From: OCS116 cluster bacterium AG-390-A19
GTDB taxonomy: Bacteria; Pseudomonadota; Alphaproteobacteria; MED-G09
Direction of reading: 5' to 3'
Length of the DNA: 64,000 nt
Assembly (NCBI GenBank): GCA_003278145.1
Contig: QCGV01000001.1
Coordinates: 139,616 to 203,615 of the forward strand
Made by a program: the position numbers and the translations under genes
Notes under the pieces: model-generated
The model's database searches: none
The model's input: only the letters and a program-made list of their open reading frames with translations
Told to the model about the DNA's origin: nothing
Shown here: one piece after another, positions 2,136 through 33,236 of the stretch
Layout of the letters: every line of letters begins with the position of its first letter
Numbering within the stretch: the stretch's first letter is position 1

Positions 2136-4607
2136 ATGCGTTTTTTTAAGTATATGTTTATTGGTTTCATTTTTGTTGCAATTACATTAATAGCTGATAA
2201 CAGAGCTTTTGCTCAAGAGACAGGTGTTTCTTCAAGACAGATAGACGAAATAATTGTTACTTCAAGAAAAACTGAAGAAAATATTCAGGATGTTCCAATT
2301 GCTGTTTATGCAGTAGATGAGAAAGCTTTAGATGATTTTCGACCAACAACTATGAGAGACTTAGATAGTCTTGCACCTAATTTGCAAGTTGGTATGAATT
2401 CAGCTTCAGGTAATCAAGGTGCAATTTTTGTTCGTGGATGTGGTTATGCCGAAGTAGAAAAAACTCAAAATCCACCAGTAGGCTTAATTGTTGATGGATT
2501 ATTTTTAGGAACTAATACCGGTACTTTATTAGATGCTTTTGATTGGTCTAAGATACAGGTGAATTCAGGTCCTCAAGGTGTTGTTTATGGTAAAAATACT
2601 TCTTGTGGTAATATTGTTGTAGAAAGAAATAAGCCATCAAAAGATTTTGAATTTGACACTGAAGTGTCAATTGGTAACTATGAGGCATATGAATTAGGCG
2701 TCATATTAAATATTCCTATCAATGATAAAGTTTCTTCACGTTGGAACTTTAGAAAACTTGCTCACCAAGGTTATTATGACAATTTATATACTGAAAAAGA
2801 TTCAGGACAATTAGATATTGCTGCGGCAAGTGCTCGTTTTTTAATTGAAGCATCTGAAAATACTGAAATTTATATCATTACAGACTATTATTATGATAGA
2901 GGTGATACAGCACCAGTTTCCTATTCAGGAAATCCTTTTGGTGCAGGATGTGTTCCTAATTTTGGAGCTGGTTTAGGATTGGTTGGAGCAGCTGATAATG
3001 GATGTACTCCTGGTCTGGGAGCAGTAACTGCAACTGAGTTAAGTACAGCTGGTGCAGCAATTGGTATTACTCCTTTTGCTGGTTTTGCAGGGCTTGAGCC
3101 ATTTTTCTCTCAAACTGAGGCACTTCCTCCTCACGTTGTTAATCTTGATAACCCAGAACAATCAGATATGGATTTTCTAAGAGGCAGTATTGAAGTTGTT
3201 TCAGATACTTTGATCGGTGAAGTAACTATTGCTACTTCTTATTTACAGTTAGATGACAATGTTCTTCAAGATTTTGATGCAACTCCAGGTTTTGGTGGTG
3301 GCCAAGGAAATCCTGCTACATTAGGTGGACCTCTTCATACTGCAAGAAATCAACATTTTTCTCAGTTTTCTCAGGAAATTAGAGTTTCTAATGATATAAC
3401 TGACAAATTAAACTTAACTACTGGAATATTTTTATGGAAAGACTCTATAATGCTTCAGCAACATTCTGGTGGAGTTGTTCAAACTTCAGGTCAAGATACA
3501 GAGTCTGTAGCAATTTTTGCATTAGTTAAATATGATGTATCAGATGATTTATCTATTTCTGGTGGTTTTAGATATGTTGATGAATCAAAAGACTTTCATT
3601 CTCAATATAATACTATTGTAGGTCCAGGTACTTATGGAACTGTTGCTCCTCTTGACTCTCCAGTTGTACTACCTAGGTTTACGAGATCAGCATCTTGGGA
3701 TGATTACATGGGTGAAGCATCTGTCGATTGGCAAGTAACAGAGGATAGTCTTTTATACGCTAGATGGGCAAGGGGCTTTAGATCAGGGGGTTATTCTATT
3801 AGATATGCAGCATCGGATACTCTAACTGCCTCTAGAGTAGCAGATCTGAATGCTCAAGGATTTGCTCTGGTTCCTCAAGCACATGCTAGAGAAGGAAGTG
3901 ACTTTAGTGTATTTGATCCAGAACTTACTGAATTATTTGAAATAGGATCTAAAAACACATTTTTAGATGGTTCTTTGCAAGTGAATGGTGCTGTCTTTCA
4001 AACTACTACTGAAGGTTTCCAAGCTTCAAGTATTTTGTCAACAGCTGGTGCGTTTAGAGCAACTGATACTTACATTAATAATTATCAGGAAACAGAAATA
4101 TCTGGTGCAGAGGTTCAAATTGTTTGGTTACCTCCAGTAGACGGTCTAACTCTCAGATTAAATTATGGTATCTTGGATCCAAAGATCAATGATGCTGTAG
4201 TTGATTCTGGAAGATTGGGTGTTGGCGGCAGACCAACCCAAGCAGGAACAATGGTTGATCTAGTAAATTCTGGGGTCACTCCTCAATTAGCGAGAGTTCC
4301 AGAGACAAGTTTTGCATTAACAGCTTTGTATGAATATAAACTTAATAATGGTGCATCGCTTAACACAAATGTAACATACAGAGGTTTCGATGATCAGAAT
4401 TTAACTATTTCATCATTCCCAGATAGTGAAGATGGATATGAGCTTCTAGATGCAACTATAACTTATGATGCTGGTGATTATTCTATTGCACTTATTGGTA
4501 GAAATCTTACTGACGAGGAATATAGAACTCACTCATTAACATCTGTTAGATTCCAAGGTTGGGGTGATCCTGCAACTTACATGTTAGAATTACGAAATTC
4601 TTGGTAA
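2136..4607 (+). CDS. TonB-dependent outer-membrane receptor
   Basis: Signal peptide; plug-type N-terminus (DEIIVTSRKTEENIQDVP, VNSGPQGVVYGKNTSCG); 823 aa with beta-strand-like alternation; C-terminal aromatic residue (..LRNSW); GGGGAG Shine-Dalgarno 7 nt upstream of the ATG. Confidence 0.85.
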   Translation: MRFFKYMFIGFIFVAITLIADNRAFAQETGVSSRQIDEIIVTSRKTEENIQDVPIAVYAVDEKALDDFRPTTMRDLDSLAPNLQVGMNSASGNQGAIFVRGCGYAEVEKTQNPPVGLIVDGLFLGTNTGTLLDAFDWSKIQVNSGPQGVVYGKNTSCGNIVVERNKPSKDFEFDTEVSIGNYEAYELGVILNIPINDKVSSRWNFRKLAHQGYYDNLYTEKDSGQLDIAAASARFLIEASENTEIYIITDYYYDRGDTAPVSYSGNPFGAGCVPNFGAGLGLVGAADNGCTPGLGAVTATELSTAGAAIGITPFAGFAGLEPFFSQTEALPPHVVNLDNPEQSDMDFLRGSIEVVSDTLIGEVTIATSYLQLDDNVLQDFDATPGFGGGQGNPATLGGPLHTARNQHFSQFSQEIRVSNDITDKLNLTTGIFLWKDSIMLQQHSGGVVQTSGQDTESVAIFALVKYDVSDDLSISGGFRYVDESKDFHSQYNTIVGPGTYGTVAPLDSPVVLPRFTRSASWDDYMGEASVDWQVTEDSLLYARWARGFRSGGYSIRYAASDTLTASRVADLNAQGFALVPQAHAREGSDFSVFDPELTELFEIGSKNTFLDGSLQVNGAVFQTTTEGFQASSILSTAGAFRATDTYINNYQETEISGAEVQIVWLPPVDGLTLRLNYGILDPKINDAVVDSGRLGVGGRPTQAGTMVDLVNSGVTPQLARVPETSFALTALYEYKLNNGASLNTNVTYRGFDDQNLTISSFPDSEDGYELLDATITYDAGDYSIALIGRNLTDEEYRTHSLTSVRFQGWGDPATYMLELRNSW

Positions 4608-27618: not shown

Positions 27619-29121
27619 TTGCGGAGAATTTTAAGCTTGGAAAAAAAGAAAAAAATTAAACCACAAAGACCTAGAGGCTTTGAAGATTTATCAGGAAGTA
27701 GCTTGAGTGAGCTTGTTCAATTGAGAGATTCCATTCAAAAAGTTTATGGTCTTTATGGTTTTGAACCTCTTGAAACTGGAATCATTGAATATTCAGATGT
27801 AATAGGGTCTTTTTTACCTGATCAAGATCGCCCAAATGAAGGTGTTTTTTCTTTTGAAGATGATGATAAAAGGTGGGTTTCATTAAGGTATGATTTGACT
27901 TCTGGCTTAGCTAGGTATGTAGCTGAGAATTTTGATAGCCTGCCTAAACCATATAGAAGATATCAATCAGGATGGGTTTTTAGAAATGAAAAACCAGGCC
28001 CTGGAAGATATAGACAATTTTATCAAATTGATGCTGATACAATTGGAAGTGATAATGCTCTTTCAGATGCCGAGATGTGCATGATGTTTTCTGATGCAAT
28101 ACAAAATACCGGTATTGAAGTAGGAAATTATGTAATACGTTTAAGTAATAGAAAAATTTTAGATGGGATTATTGATAGTCTTAATATTAAAGGAAATTCA
28201 TCAGGGTCTGAAATTAATCTATCAATTATGAGATCAATAGACAAGCTTGATCGACTGGGTTTAATGGGTGTAGAACAACTTCTTGGTGAAGGTAGAAAAG
28301 ATGATTCGGGAGACTATACTAAAGGCGCAGGTTTAGAGAAATCAGATATTAAACAAATATTATCATTTTTAGAAAGCGGAATTGAGTCAAAAATGCTTTC
28401 AAGAGAAGCATGTCTTAAAAATTTATCAAATCAATTTGGCACTAATGAAATTTTTAACGAAGCTCTAGAAGAATTGAATGAAATTTCAAAGATAATCGAT
28501 GCTGCTGGATATGATGAAAATAAAATTATAATTGATCCATCGGTTGTAAGAGGATTAGGATATTACACTGGTCCAGTTTATGAAGCTGATTTAACTTTTG
28601 ATATGGAAACAGATCAAGGGTTAGAAAAGTTTGGATCAATAGGTGGGGGTGGCCGTTATGATGATTTGGTTGCTAGACTAAAAGGAGTTAGAGTTCCTTC
28701 CACAGGTATCTCAGTTGGTGTTAGTAGATTAAGTAGTGCTTTAAAATACATAAATCAGTCAGAAGAAAATTCTGAGACTTTATCAGTTGTTGTTCTTGTG
28801 ATGGATAAAGAAAAAAGATCTGAATATTATAAAATTGCATCTAATTTAAGAAATGAGGGTATTAGTTCAGAGTGCTATTCTGGGGATGGAGGAATGAAGG
28901 CTCAGTTAAAGTATGCCGATAAACGAAATGCAAGGCTTGCTATTATTATTGGTGAGGATGAAGCTTCTTCCAAATCTGCAACAATTAAAGATTTATATAT
29001 TGGAAAAGAGTTTTCTGATAAAATTTCTGATAACAAAGAGTGGAGAAGCGGAAAAGATTCTCAGCAAAATGTACCAATTAAAGACCTTATTAACTCGGTA
29101 AAATCAATACTTTCAAAATAA
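27619..29121 (+). CDS. hisS: Histidine--tRNA ligase (long alphaproteobacterial type)
   Basis: Class II motifs (RYQSGWVFRNEKPGPGRYRQFYQIDAD, GGGGRYDDL). The in-frame TTG at 27637, 11 nt after GGAG, is a plausible alternative start. Confidence 0.92.
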   Translation: MRRILSLEKKKKIKPQRPRGFEDLSGSSLSELVQLRDSIQKVYGLYGFEPLETGIIEYSDVIGSFLPDQDRPNEGVFSFEDDDKRWVSLRYDLTSGLARYVAENFDSLPKPYRRYQSGWVFRNEKPGPGRYRQFYQIDADTIGSDNALSDAEMCMMFSDAIQNTGIEVGNYVIRLSNRKILDGIIDSLNIKGNSSGSEINLSIMRSIDKLDRLGLMGVEQLLGEGRKDDSGDYTKGAGLEKSDIKQILSFLESGIESKMLSREACLKNLSNQFGTNEIFNEALEELNEISKIIDAAGYDENKIIIDPSVVRGLGYYTGPVYEADLTFDMETDQGLEKFGSIGGGGRYDDLVARLKGVRVPSTGISVGVSRLSSALKYINQSEENSETLSVVVLVMDKEKRSEYYKIASNLRNEGISSECYSGDGGMKAQLKYADKRNARLAIIIGEDEASSKSATIKDLYIGKEFSDKISDNKEWRSGKDSQQNVPIKDLINSVKSILSK

Positions 29122-29177
29122 ATTCATATTTTATGAATAATTATATTGATTCTTAAATAAATTCATAATATATGAAT
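29122..29177. promoter_or_regulatory. Two copies of a perfect 17-bp palindrome, ATTCATA-N3-TATGAAT (candidate operator pair or RNA hairpins)
   Basis: Copy 1 is 29122-29138 (ATTCATATTTTATGAAT). Copy 2 is 29161-29177 (ATTCATAATATATGAAT). Both sit inside a 24-nt direct repeat, AAATAAATTCATAnnnTATGAATA, with 39-bp spacing. Copy 2 ends 4 nt before the hisZ ATG. Confidence 0.5.
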
Positions 29178-29181
29178 ATTT

Positions 29182-30540
29182 ATGATTAAGGAAACTAATA
29201 AAATTATTGACTTATTGGGAGGAACAGGCGCTTTAGCAAAGTTGTTAGATGTTAATCTTTCTGCTGTATCTAATTACAGAAAAAAAGGATTTCCAGATAG
29301 ATTACATTATAAAATTGCAACTTTATGCAATGAAAGAGATATTACTATCGATAGTAAAATTTTTGGCGAATTTTCTAATACTTTACCAGCTATTGATACC
29401 AGACCTTTGGAGATTTTAAGTGAAGTTTCTATAAAAGTTATCGAAAGTTTAACCGGCGATGATTTCGAGTTGATTGATCCACCTGTTTTAGTTTCCGCTG
29501 ATAAAGTTCTTGATAGATTAGGTGAGAATATTGCCGATAAGCTATATATATTTTCTGATCCAGCTGGCTCTAGACTCTGTTTGAGACCAGATCTTACGAT
29601 ACCAACATGTATCCATTATTTAAATAATGGTTTTAATGGTATTAAAAAAAACTATGCATATCATGGAAAGGTATTTCAGTTTCAAAATCCATCATCTAAT
29701 GAGCCAAATGAATTTACTCAGGCTGGTCTCGAGATTATTGGTGGTAATAGCTGTATTGAAAATGAAATAGAAGTTTTTTTTAGAACTTATAAGTCTATTG
29801 AACAGTCCGGAATTAGAAACTTCAATATTATTCTTGGAGATGTTTCTTTATTTTCGATTTTAATAGATGTTCTTGATATACCTGTTATATGGAAAGATCA
29901 GCTAAAAGCTAAATTTTGGAATGATAAAAATTTCAAAAAACTTCTAGATGAGCTAACTGTTAAGAAAAAAGTAAACAATAAGTTATTTCAAAAAATATCA
30001 AATTTAGATAATGATACTGCTGAAATTTTTGTTAGGGATACAATTGGATTGTTAGAAAATCAATCGCCTGTTGGAAGAAGTTTGAAAGAAATAACTCAAA
30101 GGCTGATAAAAAAATCTCAAGAAATAAAAACTGACCCACTTTCAAAACCAACTGTAAAACTTATAAAGGAATTTTTATCTATCTCTGATAAACCTCTGCA
30201 AGCCCTAAAAAAACTGAGGTCTATTTCTAAAAATATTGATAGTAGATTAAATTCTCAAATTGATTCTATGTCAGAGAGAATCGAAATGATGCTTAAGTTA
30301 AAGGTTGATATCAAAAATTCAATTTTATCAGTGGAAAAAGGGAGGATGGTTGAGTACTACACAGGATTTTTATTTGATTTTAATTCGAGTGATTTAAGAA
30401 ATAATCTAAATATCGCAGGAGGGGGCAGATATGATGATTTGATCAATTCTGTGAGTGATGAAAATAATATACCTGCTGTTGGTGCTGCTATTAATTTAGA
30501 TAGACTTGAAAAAATAATTTCTTCGGAGAAATTTAAATGA
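29182..30540 (+). CDS. hisZ: ATP phosphoribosyltransferase regulatory subunit HisZ with an in-frame N-terminal Cro/YdaS-like HTH domain
   Basis: Residues ~66-452 are HisS-paralogue-like (LRPDLTIPTCIHYL, QAGLEIIG, GGGRYDDL). Residues 1-65 (IIDLLGGTGALAKLLDVNLSAVSNYRKKGFP) resemble E. coli YdaS (VVGGQSAMARLLGVSPPSVNQWIKG). No stop codon and no internal ATG between the two parts. Confidence 0.8.
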   Translation: MIKETNKIIDLLGGTGALAKLLDVNLSAVSNYRKKGFPDRLHYKIATLCNERDITIDSKIFGEFSNTLPAIDTRPLEILSEVSIKVIESLTGDDFELIDPPVLVSADKVLDRLGENIADKLYIFSDPAGSRLCLRPDLTIPTCIHYLNNGFNGIKKNYAYHGKVFQFQNPSSNEPNEFTQAGLEIIGGNSCIENEIEVFFRTYKSIEQSGIRNFNIILGDVSLFSILIDVLDIPVIWKDQLKAKFWNDKNFKKLLDELTVKKKVNNKLFQKISNLDNDTAEIFVRDTIGLLENQSPVGRSLKEITQRLIKKSQEIKTDPLSKPTVKLIKEFLSISDKPLQALKKLRSISKNIDSRLNSQIDSMSERIEMMLKLKVDIKNSILSVEKGRMVEYYTGFLFDFNSSDLRNNLNIAGGGRYDDLINSVSDENNIPAVGAAINLDRLEKIISSEKFK

Positions 30541-31514
30541 GCTCAATATTGTTAGCACTACCTTCAAAAGGTAGGCTCCATGACCAAATGAATAAATTTT
30601 TTGAATCTTCTGGAATAATTCTTAAAAGATCTGGAGGTCAGAGGACTTATTCGGGTTTTATAAAAGATATAGAGGAAATAGAAATTATTTATCTTTCTGC
30701 AACAGAGATCTCTAGTGAACTATTAAAGGGTAATATTCATATGGGTGTTACCGGCATTGACTTAATTGAAGAAGGTAGAACAAGTGCATCAAAAGATGTT
30801 ACTCTGCTATCAAGGTTGGGTTTTGGAAAAGCCAATGTTGTAATAGCTGTCCCAGATCACTGGATAGATGTAGAAAATATAAGAGATTTATCTGAAGTAT
30901 CATCAGAATTTCGATCTTACAATAATAGAAGAATGAGAGTTGCTACAAAATTTACAAATATAACAAGAAATTTTTTCACAAAAAATGGTATTAATAACTA
31001 TAGACTTGTTGATAGTGCTGGAGCTACTGAGGGATCTCCTGCAGCAGGTACCTCTGAAATAATTGTTGATATAACAGAAACAGGTCAAACAATTGAGGCT
31101 AATAATTTAAAGGTTCTTGAAGACGGCATAATGCTTAAAAGTGAAATATGCATTTTCTCAAGTACAAATGATATTTGGAAAGATATTGATCTTAAACCTG
31201 TAGAGAGGTTTTTAAGAATAATTTCTGCACGATCTGAAGCATTAGGAAATGCTGAATTACTTTTTGACTACAATAGAGAGGATAAAGATCTAGAAATAAA
31301 TTTATTTAGAGAGTTTAATTCGTCATTTGTTAATGGTTCTCCAAATATTGGAGAGAGTGTTTCACTAATTACTCCAATCTCAATGGTACCATCTTGTACT
31401 TATTATTTAACAAGTAATGGATATGGACCAGTAAGAACAACAAGACCTGATTTTATTTATAATCAAGACTCTCGATCATGGAAACTTTTAAAAAACTCTA
31501 TTAATTTAAAATAA
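30537..31514 (+). CDS. hisG: ATP phosphoribosyltransferase
   Basis: LALPSKGRL N-terminus, DLIEE, ATKFTNITRNFF, IVDITETGQT. ATGA start/stop overlap with hisZ. Confidence 0.92.
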   Translation: MSSILLALPSKGRLHDQMNKFFESSGIILKRSGGQRTYSGFIKDIEEIEIIYLSATEISSELLKGNIHMGVTGIDLIEEGRTSASKDVTLLSRLGFGKANVVIAVPDHWIDVENIRDLSEVSSEFRSYNNRRMRVATKFTNITRNFFTKNGINNYRLVDSAGATEGSPAAGTSEIIVDITETGQTIEANNLKVLEDGIMLKSEICIFSSTNDIWKDIDLKPVERFLRIISARSEALGNAELLFDYNREDKDLEINLFREFNSSFVNGSPNIGESVSLITPISMVPSCTYYLTSNGYGPVRTTRPDFIYNQDSRSWKLLKNSINLK

Positions 31515-31543: not shown

Positions 31544-31568
31544 TAAATTTCAAATGAGTTTTTTTGGA

Positions 31569-33236
<1,668 letters not shown>

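What the first reader, a model, noticed from the sequence alone, without database searches (positions are those of the whole stretch)
29182..30540. HisZ carries an in-frame N-terminal Cro/YdaS-like DNA-binding domain
**Seen:** the HisS-paralogue part of the ORF begins near residue 66, at NTLPAIDTRPLEIL... and then LRPDLTIPTCIHYL. The first ~65 residues (MIKETNKIIDLLGGTGALAKLLDVNLSAVSNYRKKGFPDRLHYKIATLCNERDI) align convincingly by eye with the helix-turn-helix of E. coli YdaS and Cro-like proteins (..GGQSAMARLLGVSPPSVNQWIKG..). There is no stop codon and no internal ATG between the two parts. The gene overlaps hisG by ATGA.

**Established:** HisZ is the regulatory subunit that confers histidine feedback inhibition on short-form HisG. 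As far as I know it is not described as a DNA-binding protein.

**Inference:** a fusion would couple histidine sensing by the HisZ-HisG complex directly to transcriptional control. That would be attractive in a genome with very few regulators. I cannot tell from memory whether this fusion is annotated in relatives.
Basis: partly seen in the sequence, partly recalled or inferred. Interest (0 to 1): 0.72.

Follow-up and report, generated by a model that had tools for sequence, protein, structure and literature searches.

The report
HisZ fused to Cro-like repressor
In this marine alphaproteobacterium, the histidine-sensing regulatory subunit of the first histidine-biosynthesis enzyme carries a phage-Cro-type DNA-binding domain and sits behind two conserved palindromic DNA sites, so it very probably controls its own operon directly, which I did not find described for HisZ.

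Summary
ORF 29182-30540 encodes one 452-aa protein made of a 62-residue four-helix Cro-type HTH domain, a disordered linker and a complete HisZ body. It overlaps hisG by ATGA.

- **Domain identity.** A family profile matches Xylella prophage Cro (3bd1, E 2e-10) and P22 Cro. The structure model gives the same top hit. NCBIfam catalogues the domain as NF046037 without a function.
- **Translation.** The domain is under purifying selection as strong as on HisZ (dN/dS 0.07-0.24).
- **Candidate operators (new here).** The 60-bp hisS-hisZ spacer holds two perfect palindromes, ATTCATA-N3-TATGAAT. They are the only such sites in 64 kb. In 20 related loci (about 50-95% identity) they are near-invariant and always 39 bp apart, flanking a conserved TTGNT.
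- **Controls and parallels.** Three loci with HTH-less HisZ lack these sites. The same domain fused to CoaBC in SAR116 sits behind TTCACA-N3-TGTGAA. A separately derived YdaS-type HisZ fusion has its own palindrome pair.

Best reading: a bifunctional HisZ that autoregulates hisZG. Its tetrameric core would offer four HTHs to four half-sites. Control of DNA binding by histidine is inferred, not shown. The regulon beyond hisZG is unknown, and I found no publication on this fusion.

The parts
27619..29121 (+). hisS (histidyl-tRNA synthetase), upstream neighbour. Its stop codon directly abuts operator O1.
   Evidence: ORF. Pfam tRNA-synt_His plus HGTP_anticodon. The hisS-hisZ-hisG order is shared by related loci.
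29122..29138 (.). Distal operator candidate O1: perfect 17-bp palindrome ATTCATATTTTATGAAT.
   Evidence: Exact match and inverted/direct repeat. Present in the same place in all 20 PS1/OCS116 loci. Its columns are invariant in alignment A5.
29146..29151 (+). TTGATT, a -35-like element lying between the two operators. The promoter assignment is inferred.
   Evidence: T-T-G-n-T is invariant in 18 aligned upstream regions while the flanks vary. The consensus scan did not call it as a promoter.
29161..29177 (.). Proximal operator candidate O2: perfect palindrome ATTCATAATATATGAAT, ending 4 nt before the ATG. It overlaps the place where a -10 element would lie.
   Evidence: O2 is always 39 bp centre-to-centre from O1. 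TTCA-N7-TGAA occurs only at these two sites in the 64-kb window.
29182..29367 (+). N-terminal Cro-type HTH domain (residues 1-62; helices 5-11, 14-22, 26-35, 39-51).
   Evidence: Purifying selection is shown.
29257..29286 (+). Predicted recognition helix (residues 26-35, LSAVSNYRKK). It contains an A7 run at 29280-29286.
   Evidence: Helix 3 of the AF2 models. It aligns to QSAISNWRARG of Xfaso-1 Cro and AAVSQWKE of P22 Cro.
29368..29421 (+). Flexible linker (residues 63-80).
   Evidence: pLDDT is below 50 for residues 63-76. dN/dS is 0.36-1.15 and the sequence is not conserved.
29422..30540 (+). HisZ body (residues 81-452 plus stop): a HisRS-like core without an anticodon-binding domain.
   Evidence: The motifs CLRPDLT, GR..EYYTG and GGGRYD are invariant in alignment A1.
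30537..31514 (+). hisG (catalytic subunit), overlapping hisZ by ATGA and therefore probably translationally coupled to it. The likely target operon is hisZ-hisG.
   Evidence: Pfam HisG and TIGR00070 cover residues 5-211, and there is no HisG_C hit.

Best explanation
The gene encodes a bifunctional HisZ.

**Two parts of the protein.** The C-terminal 370 residues are the normal histidine-binding regulatory subunit that assembles with HisG into ATP phosphoribosyltransferase. The N-terminal 62 residues are a phage-Cro-type helix-turn-helix domain, tethered by a flexible linker.

**Proposed DNA binding.** Pairs of HTH domains, held together by the HisZ oligomer, bind the two palindromes O1 and O2 (ATTCATA-N3-TATGAAT, 39 bp apart). 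These bracket and overlap the hisZ-hisG promoter, so the protein would repress (autoregulate) its own operon. It would also block read-through from hisS.

**Stoichiometry.** The published HisZ core is a tetramer, which would supply four HTH domains for the four half-sites.

**Most likely signal (inferred).** Histidine binding to HisZ, which already switches the enzyme complex to its inhibited state, also favours operator binding. The same sensor would then deliver both enzyme-level and transcription-level feedback.

**What is shown and what is inferred.**
- Shown: the domain's identity, its conservation, the operator candidates and their co-occurrence with the domain.
- Inferred: physical binding, the sign of regulation and the dependence on histidine.
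For: - **Domain identity.** Family profile to Cro structures at 1.9e-10 and 1e-6. AF2 pLDDT 90 with top Foldseek hit 3bd1. NF046037 hits 82 of 83 family members.
- **Translated and constrained.** dN/dS is 0.07-0.24, equal to or lower than for the HisZ body. The full length is conserved in all PS1/OCS116 relatives.
- **Operators in the window.** Two exact palindromes, with no other site at 0-1 mismatch in 64 kb.
- **Operators in relatives.** In 20 related loci they lie at constant 39-bp spacing. In the 18 upstream regions aligned, the invariant columns lie almost entirely in the two palindromes and TTGNT. TTCA-N7-TGAA density is 13.3 per kb upstream against 0.027 per kb elsewhere in the loci.
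- **Distant HTH-HisZ loci.** L017, L022, L049 and L053 also carry ATTCAT-N5-ATGAAT upstream.
- **Negative controls.** HTH-less hisZ loci L136-L138 have no such site, and in two of them hisZ overlaps hisS.
- **Parallel cases.** The same domain on CoaBC sits behind TTCACA-N3-TGTGAA. A stand-alone homologue sits behind ATTCAAGTAACTTGAAT. The YdaS-type HisZ fusion has two perfect 21-23-bp palindromes of its own.
- **HisZ part intact.** HisZ equivalog at E 4e-87 and conserved motifs. The top PDB hits are HisZ structures. The gene overlaps a short-type hisG by ATGA.
- **Literature.** A tetrameric HisZ core, with HisZ as the histidine-binding subunit, is described in PMC10795190.
Against: - No binding or expression data exist.
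- The single sequence scores below the curated cut-offs of PF14549, PF15943 and NF046037.
- The simple sigma-70 scan did not call a promoter using TTGATT, so the promoter overlap is my reading.
- 39 bp is not a whole number of helical turns.
- Some distant fusion loci (L051, L052, L055, L140) show no clear palindrome.
- No second target was found. The window holds no other site, and no other his gene was found among the 10 further window ORFs tested.
- Nothing tested here bears on whether histidine changes DNA affinity.
Confidence: 0.7

Rival explanations
1. The HTH domain binds O1/O2, but histidine plays no part. The fusion would be a plain negative autoregulator that fixes HisZ/HisG dosage or insulates hisZG from hisS read-through, with HisZ serving only as an oligomerisation scaffold for a weakly dimerising Cro domain.
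For: All the operator evidence fits this equally well. The same domain also sits on CoaBC, a different oligomeric enzyme. Stand-alone and phage homologues have no sensor domain at all.
Against: Cro-like domains were joined to HisZ at least three times. That points to an advantage tied to this particular sensor protein rather than to any oligomer. This argument is weak and indirect.
Confidence: 0.18
2. The protein is an activator, or a dual regulator. Bound at O1, centred about 50 bp upstream of the start, it would recruit RNA polymerase when histidine is low, while O2 acts in repression or fine-tuning.
For: O1 lies just upstream of the conserved TTGNT, a position typical of class I/II activators. 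The distantly related lambda CII, which the family profile matches weakly (2e-3), is an activator.
Against: O2 ends 4-8 nt before the ATG and covers the only place a -10 and TSS could lie. That geometry is the classic one for repression. The closest solved relatives are Cro repressors.
Confidence: 0.07
3. The N-terminal domain does not bind DNA here (for example it mediates protein contacts or is vestigial), and the palindromes are the site of another, unlinked regulator or an RNA element.
For: No direct binding data exist. The Pfam YdaS family is labelled a 'toxin'. The single-sequence scores are sub-threshold.
Against: The palindromes follow the domain onto a different enzyme and onto stand-alone genes, with changed half-sites. 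They are absent where HisZ lacks the domain. The recognition-helix motif SAVSNY(R) is among the most conserved parts of the domain. The hairpins are AU-rich, and no terminator was called.
Confidence: 0.04
4. The extension is an annotation artefact. Translation would really start near residue 70-80, and the upstream part would be untranslated leader.
For: An in-frame TTG exists at about residue 75, and there is no Shine-Dalgarno sequence before the ATG at 29182.
Against: dN/dS of 0.07-0.24 over residues 1-62 shows selection on the protein sequence. The frame is open and the length conserved in more than 40 homologues. The TTG codon is not conserved in relatives. Only 19 of 56 ORFs in this window have an SD-like motif, so its absence says little.
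Confidence: 0.01

Closest known systems
Canonical HisZ (regulatory subunit of short-form ATP phosphoribosyltransferase; PDB 1Z7M, 5M8H, 8OY0)
   Same: A HisRS-like core without an anticodon domain, conserved LRPDLT / EYYTG / GGGRYD motifs and coupling to a short-type hisG. The published complex has a tetrameric HisZ core that binds histidine (PMC10795190).
   Different: Described HisZ proteins and most alphaproteobacterial homologues (363-399 aa) have no DNA-binding domain. This one adds 80 N-terminal residues and has operator-like sites upstream.
All-alpha phage Cro proteins (Xfaso-1 Cro 3BD1, P22 Cro 1RZS) and the E. coli YdaS/DicC-type prophage regulators
   Same: The same small helical HTH fold and the signature (S/A)AVS(N/Q)W/Y(R/K) recognition helix. 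Palindromic sites lie next to the protein's own gene. About 80 close homologues on viral contigs are stand-alone proteins of 50-106 aa.
   Different: Here the domain is covalently fused to a metabolic sensor protein and is chromosomal, in a housekeeping operon rather than a prophage switch region.
Bifunctional enzyme-repressors ('trigger enzymes'): BirA, NadR, PutA, archaeal RbkR (PMC5397151) and BzdR (PMC3602430)
   Same: One polypeptide combines a DNA-binding domain with a metabolic protein whose ligand state is expected to set operator occupancy, and the target is the pathway's own genes.
   Different: The partner is not an enzyme but an allosteric regulatory subunit (an aaRS paralogue) that works inside a hetero-octamer. 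The DNA-binding module is Cro-type, not winged-helix, RHH or Xre. None of these known systems controls histidine biosynthesis.
HisR (TrpR-family histidine repressor of Firmicutes and some Proteobacteria; PMC9413887)
   Same: A protein repressor predicted or shown to bind palindromes upstream of his operons, in place of an RNA attenuator or T-box.
   Different: HisR is a separate small protein of another HTH family. It senses histidine itself and is not part of the enzyme.
NCBIfam NF046037 'carph-isopro domain'
   Same: 82 of 83 family members hit this model. The P0117 HisZ fusion and the stand-alone L023 protein exceed its cut-off.
   Different: The model only names a domain, and the library entry gives no function. 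The window protein itself scores 30.4-30.7 bits against a 38-bit cut-off.

Membership tests
HisZ (ATP phosphoribosyltransferase regulatory subunit) | HisRS-like class II core with no anticodon-binding domain | tested here: met
   PF13393 at E 1.4e-30, with no HGTP_anticodon hit. The neighbouring true hisS does have that domain. The best Foldseek and sequence PDB hits are 3OD1, 1Z7M, 8OY0 and 5M8H.
HisZ (ATP phosphoribosyltransferase regulatory subunit) | Scores above the curated equivalog cut-off (NF0089xx / TIGR00443) | tested here: not met
   The best is NF008953 at 292.6 bits against a cut-off of 384. TIGR00443 gives 134 against 271.65. The six best-scoring models, and 15 of the 19 listed, are HisZ equivalogs, with E-values down to 4e-87. 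I read this as a divergent lineage, not as non-membership.
HisZ (ATP phosphoribosyltransferase regulatory subunit) | Paired with a hisG that lacks the C-terminal histidine-binding domain of long-form HisG | tested here: met
   ATGA overlap with hisG. HisG matches PF01634 and TIGR00070 over residues 5-211 and has no HisG_C hit. It does carry about 115 unassigned C-terminal residues.
HisZ (ATP phosphoribosyltransferase regulatory subunit) | Activates HisG and transmits histidine inhibition | not testable with these tools
   Only motif conservation could be checked. CLRPDLT, GR..EYYTG and GGGRYD are invariant in 21 sequences.
Cro/YdaS-type HTH (PF14549, PF15943, NF046037) | Significant match to the family models | tested here: inconclusive
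   The single sequence gives 23.2, 21.4 and 30.4 bits, all below the cut-offs of 30.2, 30 and 38. A family profile matches 3BD1 at 1.9e-10 and 1RZS at 1e-6. 82 of 83 relatives hit NF046037, the best at 1.7e-14.
Cro/YdaS-type HTH (PF14549, PF15943, NF046037) | Small all-helical fold with the HTH at helices 2-3 | tested here: met
   AF2 pLDDT 90.3 with four helices. The Foldseek top hits are 3BD1 chains (prob 0.96-0.99, TM 0.64-0.65), followed by Aca7 and N15 Cro.
Cro/YdaS-type HTH (PF14549, PF15943, NF046037) | Palindromic operator(s) adjacent to its own gene | tested here: met
   Two perfect 17-bp palindromes lie upstream, conserved in 20 of 20 lineage loci. Lineage-specific variants occur in other fusions. 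Physical binding was not tested.
Bifunctional metabolic protein / transcription regulator (BirA-, NadR-, PutA-, RbkR-like) | DNA-binding domain and metabolic domain in one translated polypeptide | tested here: met
   One open frame, with both parts under purifying selection.
Bifunctional metabolic protein / transcription regulator (BirA-, NadR-, PutA-, RbkR-like) | DNA binding depends on the pathway ligand | not testable with these tools
   This needs EMSA or fluorescence polarisation with and without histidine, HisG, ATP and PRPP.

The most novel reading that the evidence does not exclude
A phage-Cro-derived HTH module (NF046037 type) has been grafted repeatedly onto oligomeric, metabolite-sensing biosynthetic proteins in marine and freshwater Alphaproteobacteria. 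It was joined to HisZ at least three times independently, and also to CoaBC.

The result would be minimal one-polypeptide feedback regulators. The allosteric T/R transition and assembly state of the enzyme complex itself (a HisZ4-HisG4 octamer bridging two operators) would gate transcription of the pathway's first step.

This would be the transcriptional regulator of histidine biosynthesis in these lineages. I am not aware of a described his regulator in Alphaproteobacteria; this was not searched specifically.
Probability: 0.4. Interest if true: 0.8.

Novelty: new variant of a known kind. Interest (0 to 1): 0.68.

Why it matters
- **A testable candidate regulator.** Transcriptional control of histidine biosynthesis is well understood for enteric attenuators, T-boxes and HisR. 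To my knowledge it is not understood for Alphaproteobacteria. This finding supplies a concrete candidate with a defined operator for abundant ocean lineages (the PS1/OCS116 clade, and by analogy CoaBC in SAR116).
- **An unusual sensor.** An allosteric regulatory subunit of an enzyme complex would double as the sensor of a transcription factor, merging enzyme-level and gene-level feedback in one protein. This is economical for genomes with few regulators.
- **Recurrence.** Cro-like domains were fused to HisZ several times, and each fusion comes with its own palindromes. That suggests a general evolutionary route from phage repressor modules to metabolic regulators.
- **Practical use.** The compact histidine-responsive repressor/operator pair could serve as a biosensor part.

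Tried and rejected
- **Regulon search in metagenomes.** None had HisZ, the N-domain or any similarity to the window. It was uninformative, so the regulon beyond hisZG remains unknown.
- **Other his genes in the window.** Ten candidate ORFs turned out to be SDRs, an MFS transporter, Pth, L25, YchF and others. No his genes were found.
- **Second copy of the domain in the window.** None was found.
- **Terminator reading of the palindromes.** No intrinsic terminator was called, and the stems are AU-rich.
- **Promoter scan.** The scan gave no more hits than shuffled sequence and did not call the TTGATT-based promoter. The promoter overlap is therefore inference.
- **Leaderless mRNA idea.** O2 ends 4 nt before the ATG and there is no SD. 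However, only 19 of 56 ORFs here have an SD-like motif, so this stays speculation.
- **Literature.** Searches for 'carph-isopro', HisZ with HTH, Cro or DNA-binding fusion terms returned no paper on this fusion. The meaning of the NCBIfam name could not be established.
- **P0117 fusion locus (L140).** No convincing palindrome was found upstream.
- **SAR11 origin.** I first assumed SAR11. The relatives are in fact PS1/OCS116 'Rhodobiaceae'/Parvibaculales genomes.
Full report
**1. The observation**

The window (32% GC) carries hisS (27619-29121), a 452-aa ORF (29182-30540) and hisG (30537-31514) on the + strand. The 452-aa ORF overlaps hisG by ATGA.

Residues 81-445 are a HisZ. Pfam tRNA-synt_His gives 1.4e-30 and there is no anticodon-binding domain. 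The NCBIfam HisZ equivalog NF008953 gives 4e-87 (292.6 bits, below its 384-bit cut-off), and the six best-scoring models, like most of the 19 listed, are HisZ equivalogs. The best sequence and fold matches in the PDB are HisZ structures (1Z7M, 3OD1, 8OY0, 5M8H), followed by HisRS. The motifs CLRPDLT, GR..EYYTG and GGGRYD are invariant in an alignment of 21 homologues.

**2. The N-terminal domain**

On the single sequence, residues 5-56 give sub-threshold hits:
- P22_Cro: 5.8e-5
- YdaS: 2.3e-4
- NCBIfam NF046037 'carph-isopro domain': 3e-7, 30.4 bits against a cut-off of 38

The evidence becomes firm at family level.
- A profile of 83 relatives matches the Xylella prophage Xfaso-1 Cro (3BD1) at 1.9e-10 and P22 Cro (1RZS) at 1e-6, with lambda CII weaker.
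- 82 of the 83 relatives hit NF046037.
- AlphaFold2 predicts four helices (5-11, 14-22, 26-35, 39-51) with pLDDT 90 for the isolated domain. In the full-length model these score 81-91, followed by a disordered linker (residues 63-76, pLDDT below 50) and a confident HisZ body.
- The best Foldseek matches for the domain are the 3BD1 chains (prob 0.96-0.99, TM 0.64-0.65, 33-34% id), then Aca7 and N15 Cro, including its DNA complex.
- Helix 3 (LSAVSNYRKK) aligns with the recognition helix QSAISNWRARG / AAVSQWKE of these Cro proteins.

**3. The extension is translated and selected**

All close relatives are 451-455 aa and cover 98-100% of the query down to about 50% identity. Ordinary alphaproteobacterial HisZ proteins are 363-399 aa.

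Codon-level comparison with 11 related genes gives these dN/dS values:

| Region | dN/dS |
|---|---|
| Residues 1-62 (HTH domain) | 0.07-0.24 |
| HisZ body | 0.06-0.30 |
| Linker | 0.36-1.15 |

An in-frame TTG near residue 75 is not conserved. The start-site artefact is therefore rejected.

**4. Who has it**

A scan of species-representative genomes found the fusion in 20 PS1-clade, OCS116-cluster and 'Rhodobiaceae' genomes. The closest is OCS116 SAG AG-390-I16 at 95% identity. Two more distant Alphaproteobacteria also carry it.

An exhaustive HMM search of 1.8 billion cluster representatives found 1148 domain homologues at E <= 1e-3. Most of the top 150 are stand-alone proteins of 60-100 aa. 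About twenty are long proteins, and all of those are HTH-HisZ fusions whose HisZ parts are only 25-40% identical to this one over the aligned stretches. They occur in loci of 40-54% GC, usually in the order hisS-hisZ-hisG.

Source annotations call these proteins simply 'ATP phosphoribosyltransferase regulatory subunit'.

On viral contigs, 80 homologues are all small stand-alone proteins, as expected for cro-like genes.

**5. Candidate operators**

The 60-bp hisS-hisZ spacer contains two perfect 17-bp palindromes. O1 is ATTCATATTTTATGAAT (29122-29138) and starts immediately after the hisS stop codon. O2 is ATTCATAATATATGAAT (29161-29177) and ends 4 nt before the ATG.
- There is no other match with 0-1 mismatch in the window. 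TTCA-N7-TGAA occurs nowhere else in the 64 kb.
- In all 20 lineage loci both sites are present at exactly 39 bp centre-to-centre, even though the proteins have diverged to about 50% identity.
- In an alignment of 18 upstream regions, the invariant columns lie almost entirely in the two palindromes and a TTGNT between them (29146-29150), while the flanks vary.
- Site density is 13.3 per kb in the 150 bp upstream, against 0.027 per kb in the remaining 148 kb of these loci.
- Distant HTH-HisZ loci L017, L022, L049 and L053 carry ATTCAT-N5-ATGAAT upstream. L051, L052 and L055 are unclear.

**6. Controls and parallel cases**

*Controls.* Three loci with HTH-less HisZ, including Parvibaculum, have no such site. 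In two of them hisZ overlaps hisS by 4 nt, leaving no regulatory spacer at all.

*Parallel cases.*
- *CoaBC fusions.* In SAR116/Puniceispirillales and related MAGs, the same domain (40-45% id, NF046037 at 30-32 bits) is fused to CoaBC (Pfam Flavoprotein plus DFP). In the larger subgroup (L024-L042) the upstream palindrome is TTCACA-N3-TGTGAA, in one or two copies 31-32 bp apart where two are clear. A second CoaBC subgroup has ATTCAA-N3/4-TTGAAT. Overall, 16 of the 24 CoaBC loci have a TTCA-N7-TGAA site within 150 bp upstream.
- *Stand-alone homologue.* L023 sits behind ATTCAAGTAACTTGAAT.
- *YdaS-type fusion.* A different, YdaS-type Cro domain is fused to a Parvibaculum-like HisZ (P0052, locus L139, 59% GC). 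It sits behind two perfect palindromes of its own, ATACTTTCAAATTATGAAAGTAT and AGTGAAAGATATGCTTTCACT, in a 76-bp spacer.
- *Third subtype.* The extension of P0117 scores above the NF046037 cut-off at 43 bits.

*Number of fusion events.* On an NJ tree of HisZ bodies, the SAVSNYR-type fusions need only one change of state. P0052 and P0117 lie inside the unfused clade. This indicates at least three independent fusions, although the tree is crude.

Palindromes therefore travel with the domain, not with hisZ.

**7. Mechanism**

Published structures show a tetrameric HisZ core sandwiched by two HisG dimers, with HisZ binding histidine to transmit inhibition (PMC10795190). Four tethered HTH domains per core match the four half-sites of O1 and O2.

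O2 covers the only place where a -10 element and TSS could lie downstream of the conserved TTGATT. O1 abuts the -35-like element.

From this I infer the following:
- The protein represses hisZG and blocks hisS read-through.
- Histidine-bound HisZ is the better binder.

Not shown:
- Physical binding.
- The sign of regulation.
- Ligand dependence.
- The promoter itself, which the simple scan did not call.

The 39-bp spacing is not in helical phase. The flexible linker may compensate for this.

**8. Comparison with what is known**

The arrangement works like the bifunctional enzyme-repressors BirA, NadR, PutA, RbkR (PMC5397151) and BzdR (PMC3602430). It fills the role that HisR plays in Firmicutes (PMC9413887).

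It differs in two ways:
- The sensor is an allosteric regulatory subunit, an aaRS paralogue, rather than an enzyme.
- The DNA-binding module is a phage Cro type.

Searches of the held literature found no description of a DNA-binding HisZ or of the 'carph-isopro' domain. NCBIfam does catalogue the domain.

I classify this as a new variant of a known kind.

**9. Limits**

The regulon beyond hisZG is unknown. The window has no other site, and no other his gene was found among the ten further ORFs tested.

Noticed in passing
L024-L047 (e.g. L033:3992-5440, upstream 3930-3985): In SAR116/Puniceispirillales and Rhodospirillaceae-like MAGs, the same Cro-type domain is fused to the N-terminus of CoaBC (Dfp; 472-512 aa). 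It is preceded by one or two TTCACA-N3-TGTGAA palindromes. This would be a parallel, apparently undescribed candidate autoregulator of coenzyme A biosynthesis.
   Followed up: partly
L139:2425-2500 and gene 2501-3925 (protein P0052): A Parvibaculum-like genome (59% GC) has a separately derived YdaS-type domain fused to HisZ. Two perfect 21-23-bp palindromes (ACTTTCA-N5-TGAAAGT and GTGAAAG-N5-CTTTCAC) lie in the 76-bp hisS-hisZ spacer. P0117 (L140) carries a third subtype.
   Followed up: partly
window 29280-29286: An A7 run lies inside the recognition-helix codons. One public assembly (P0139, 78 aa, on a 1.44-Mb contig) has a -1 frameshift exactly here. In L049/L050 the gene is split into a 103-aa HTH ORF and a 334-aa HisZ ORF. 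These are probably homopolymer sequencing errors, but slippage that uncouples the two domains cannot be excluded.
   Followed up: partly
window 30537-31514 (residues ~212-325 of HisG): HisG is 325 aa, but the HisG models cover only residues 5-211 and there is no HisG_C hit. About 115 C-terminal residues are unassigned. HisG is similarly long (300-343 aa) in both fused and unfused alphaproteobacterial loci, so this extension is independent of the HTH fusion.
   Followed up: partly
window 29178-29184: There is no Shine-Dalgarno sequence, and only 4 nt separate O2 from the ATG. If the TTGATT-based promoter is real, the hisZ mRNA would be leaderless or nearly so. However, only 19 of 56 ORFs in the window have an SD-like motif.
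   Followed up: partly
window 31554-31697 (+), opposite groEL 31569-33233 (-): A 47-aa ORF with an [12 protein letters not shown] repeat is simply the antisense reading of the GGM-repeat C-terminus of groEL. It is very likely not a gene.
   Followed up: no
L049:846-2291, L055:1-1302: In two distant HTH-HisZ loci, the gene upstream of hisS is a 481-aa Xre-HTH plus Peptidase_M78 (ImmA/IrrE-like) plus ScfRs protein. In L049 this lies next to an isocitrate-lyase/PEP-mutase gene. Any relation to the his locus is unknown.
   Followed up: no
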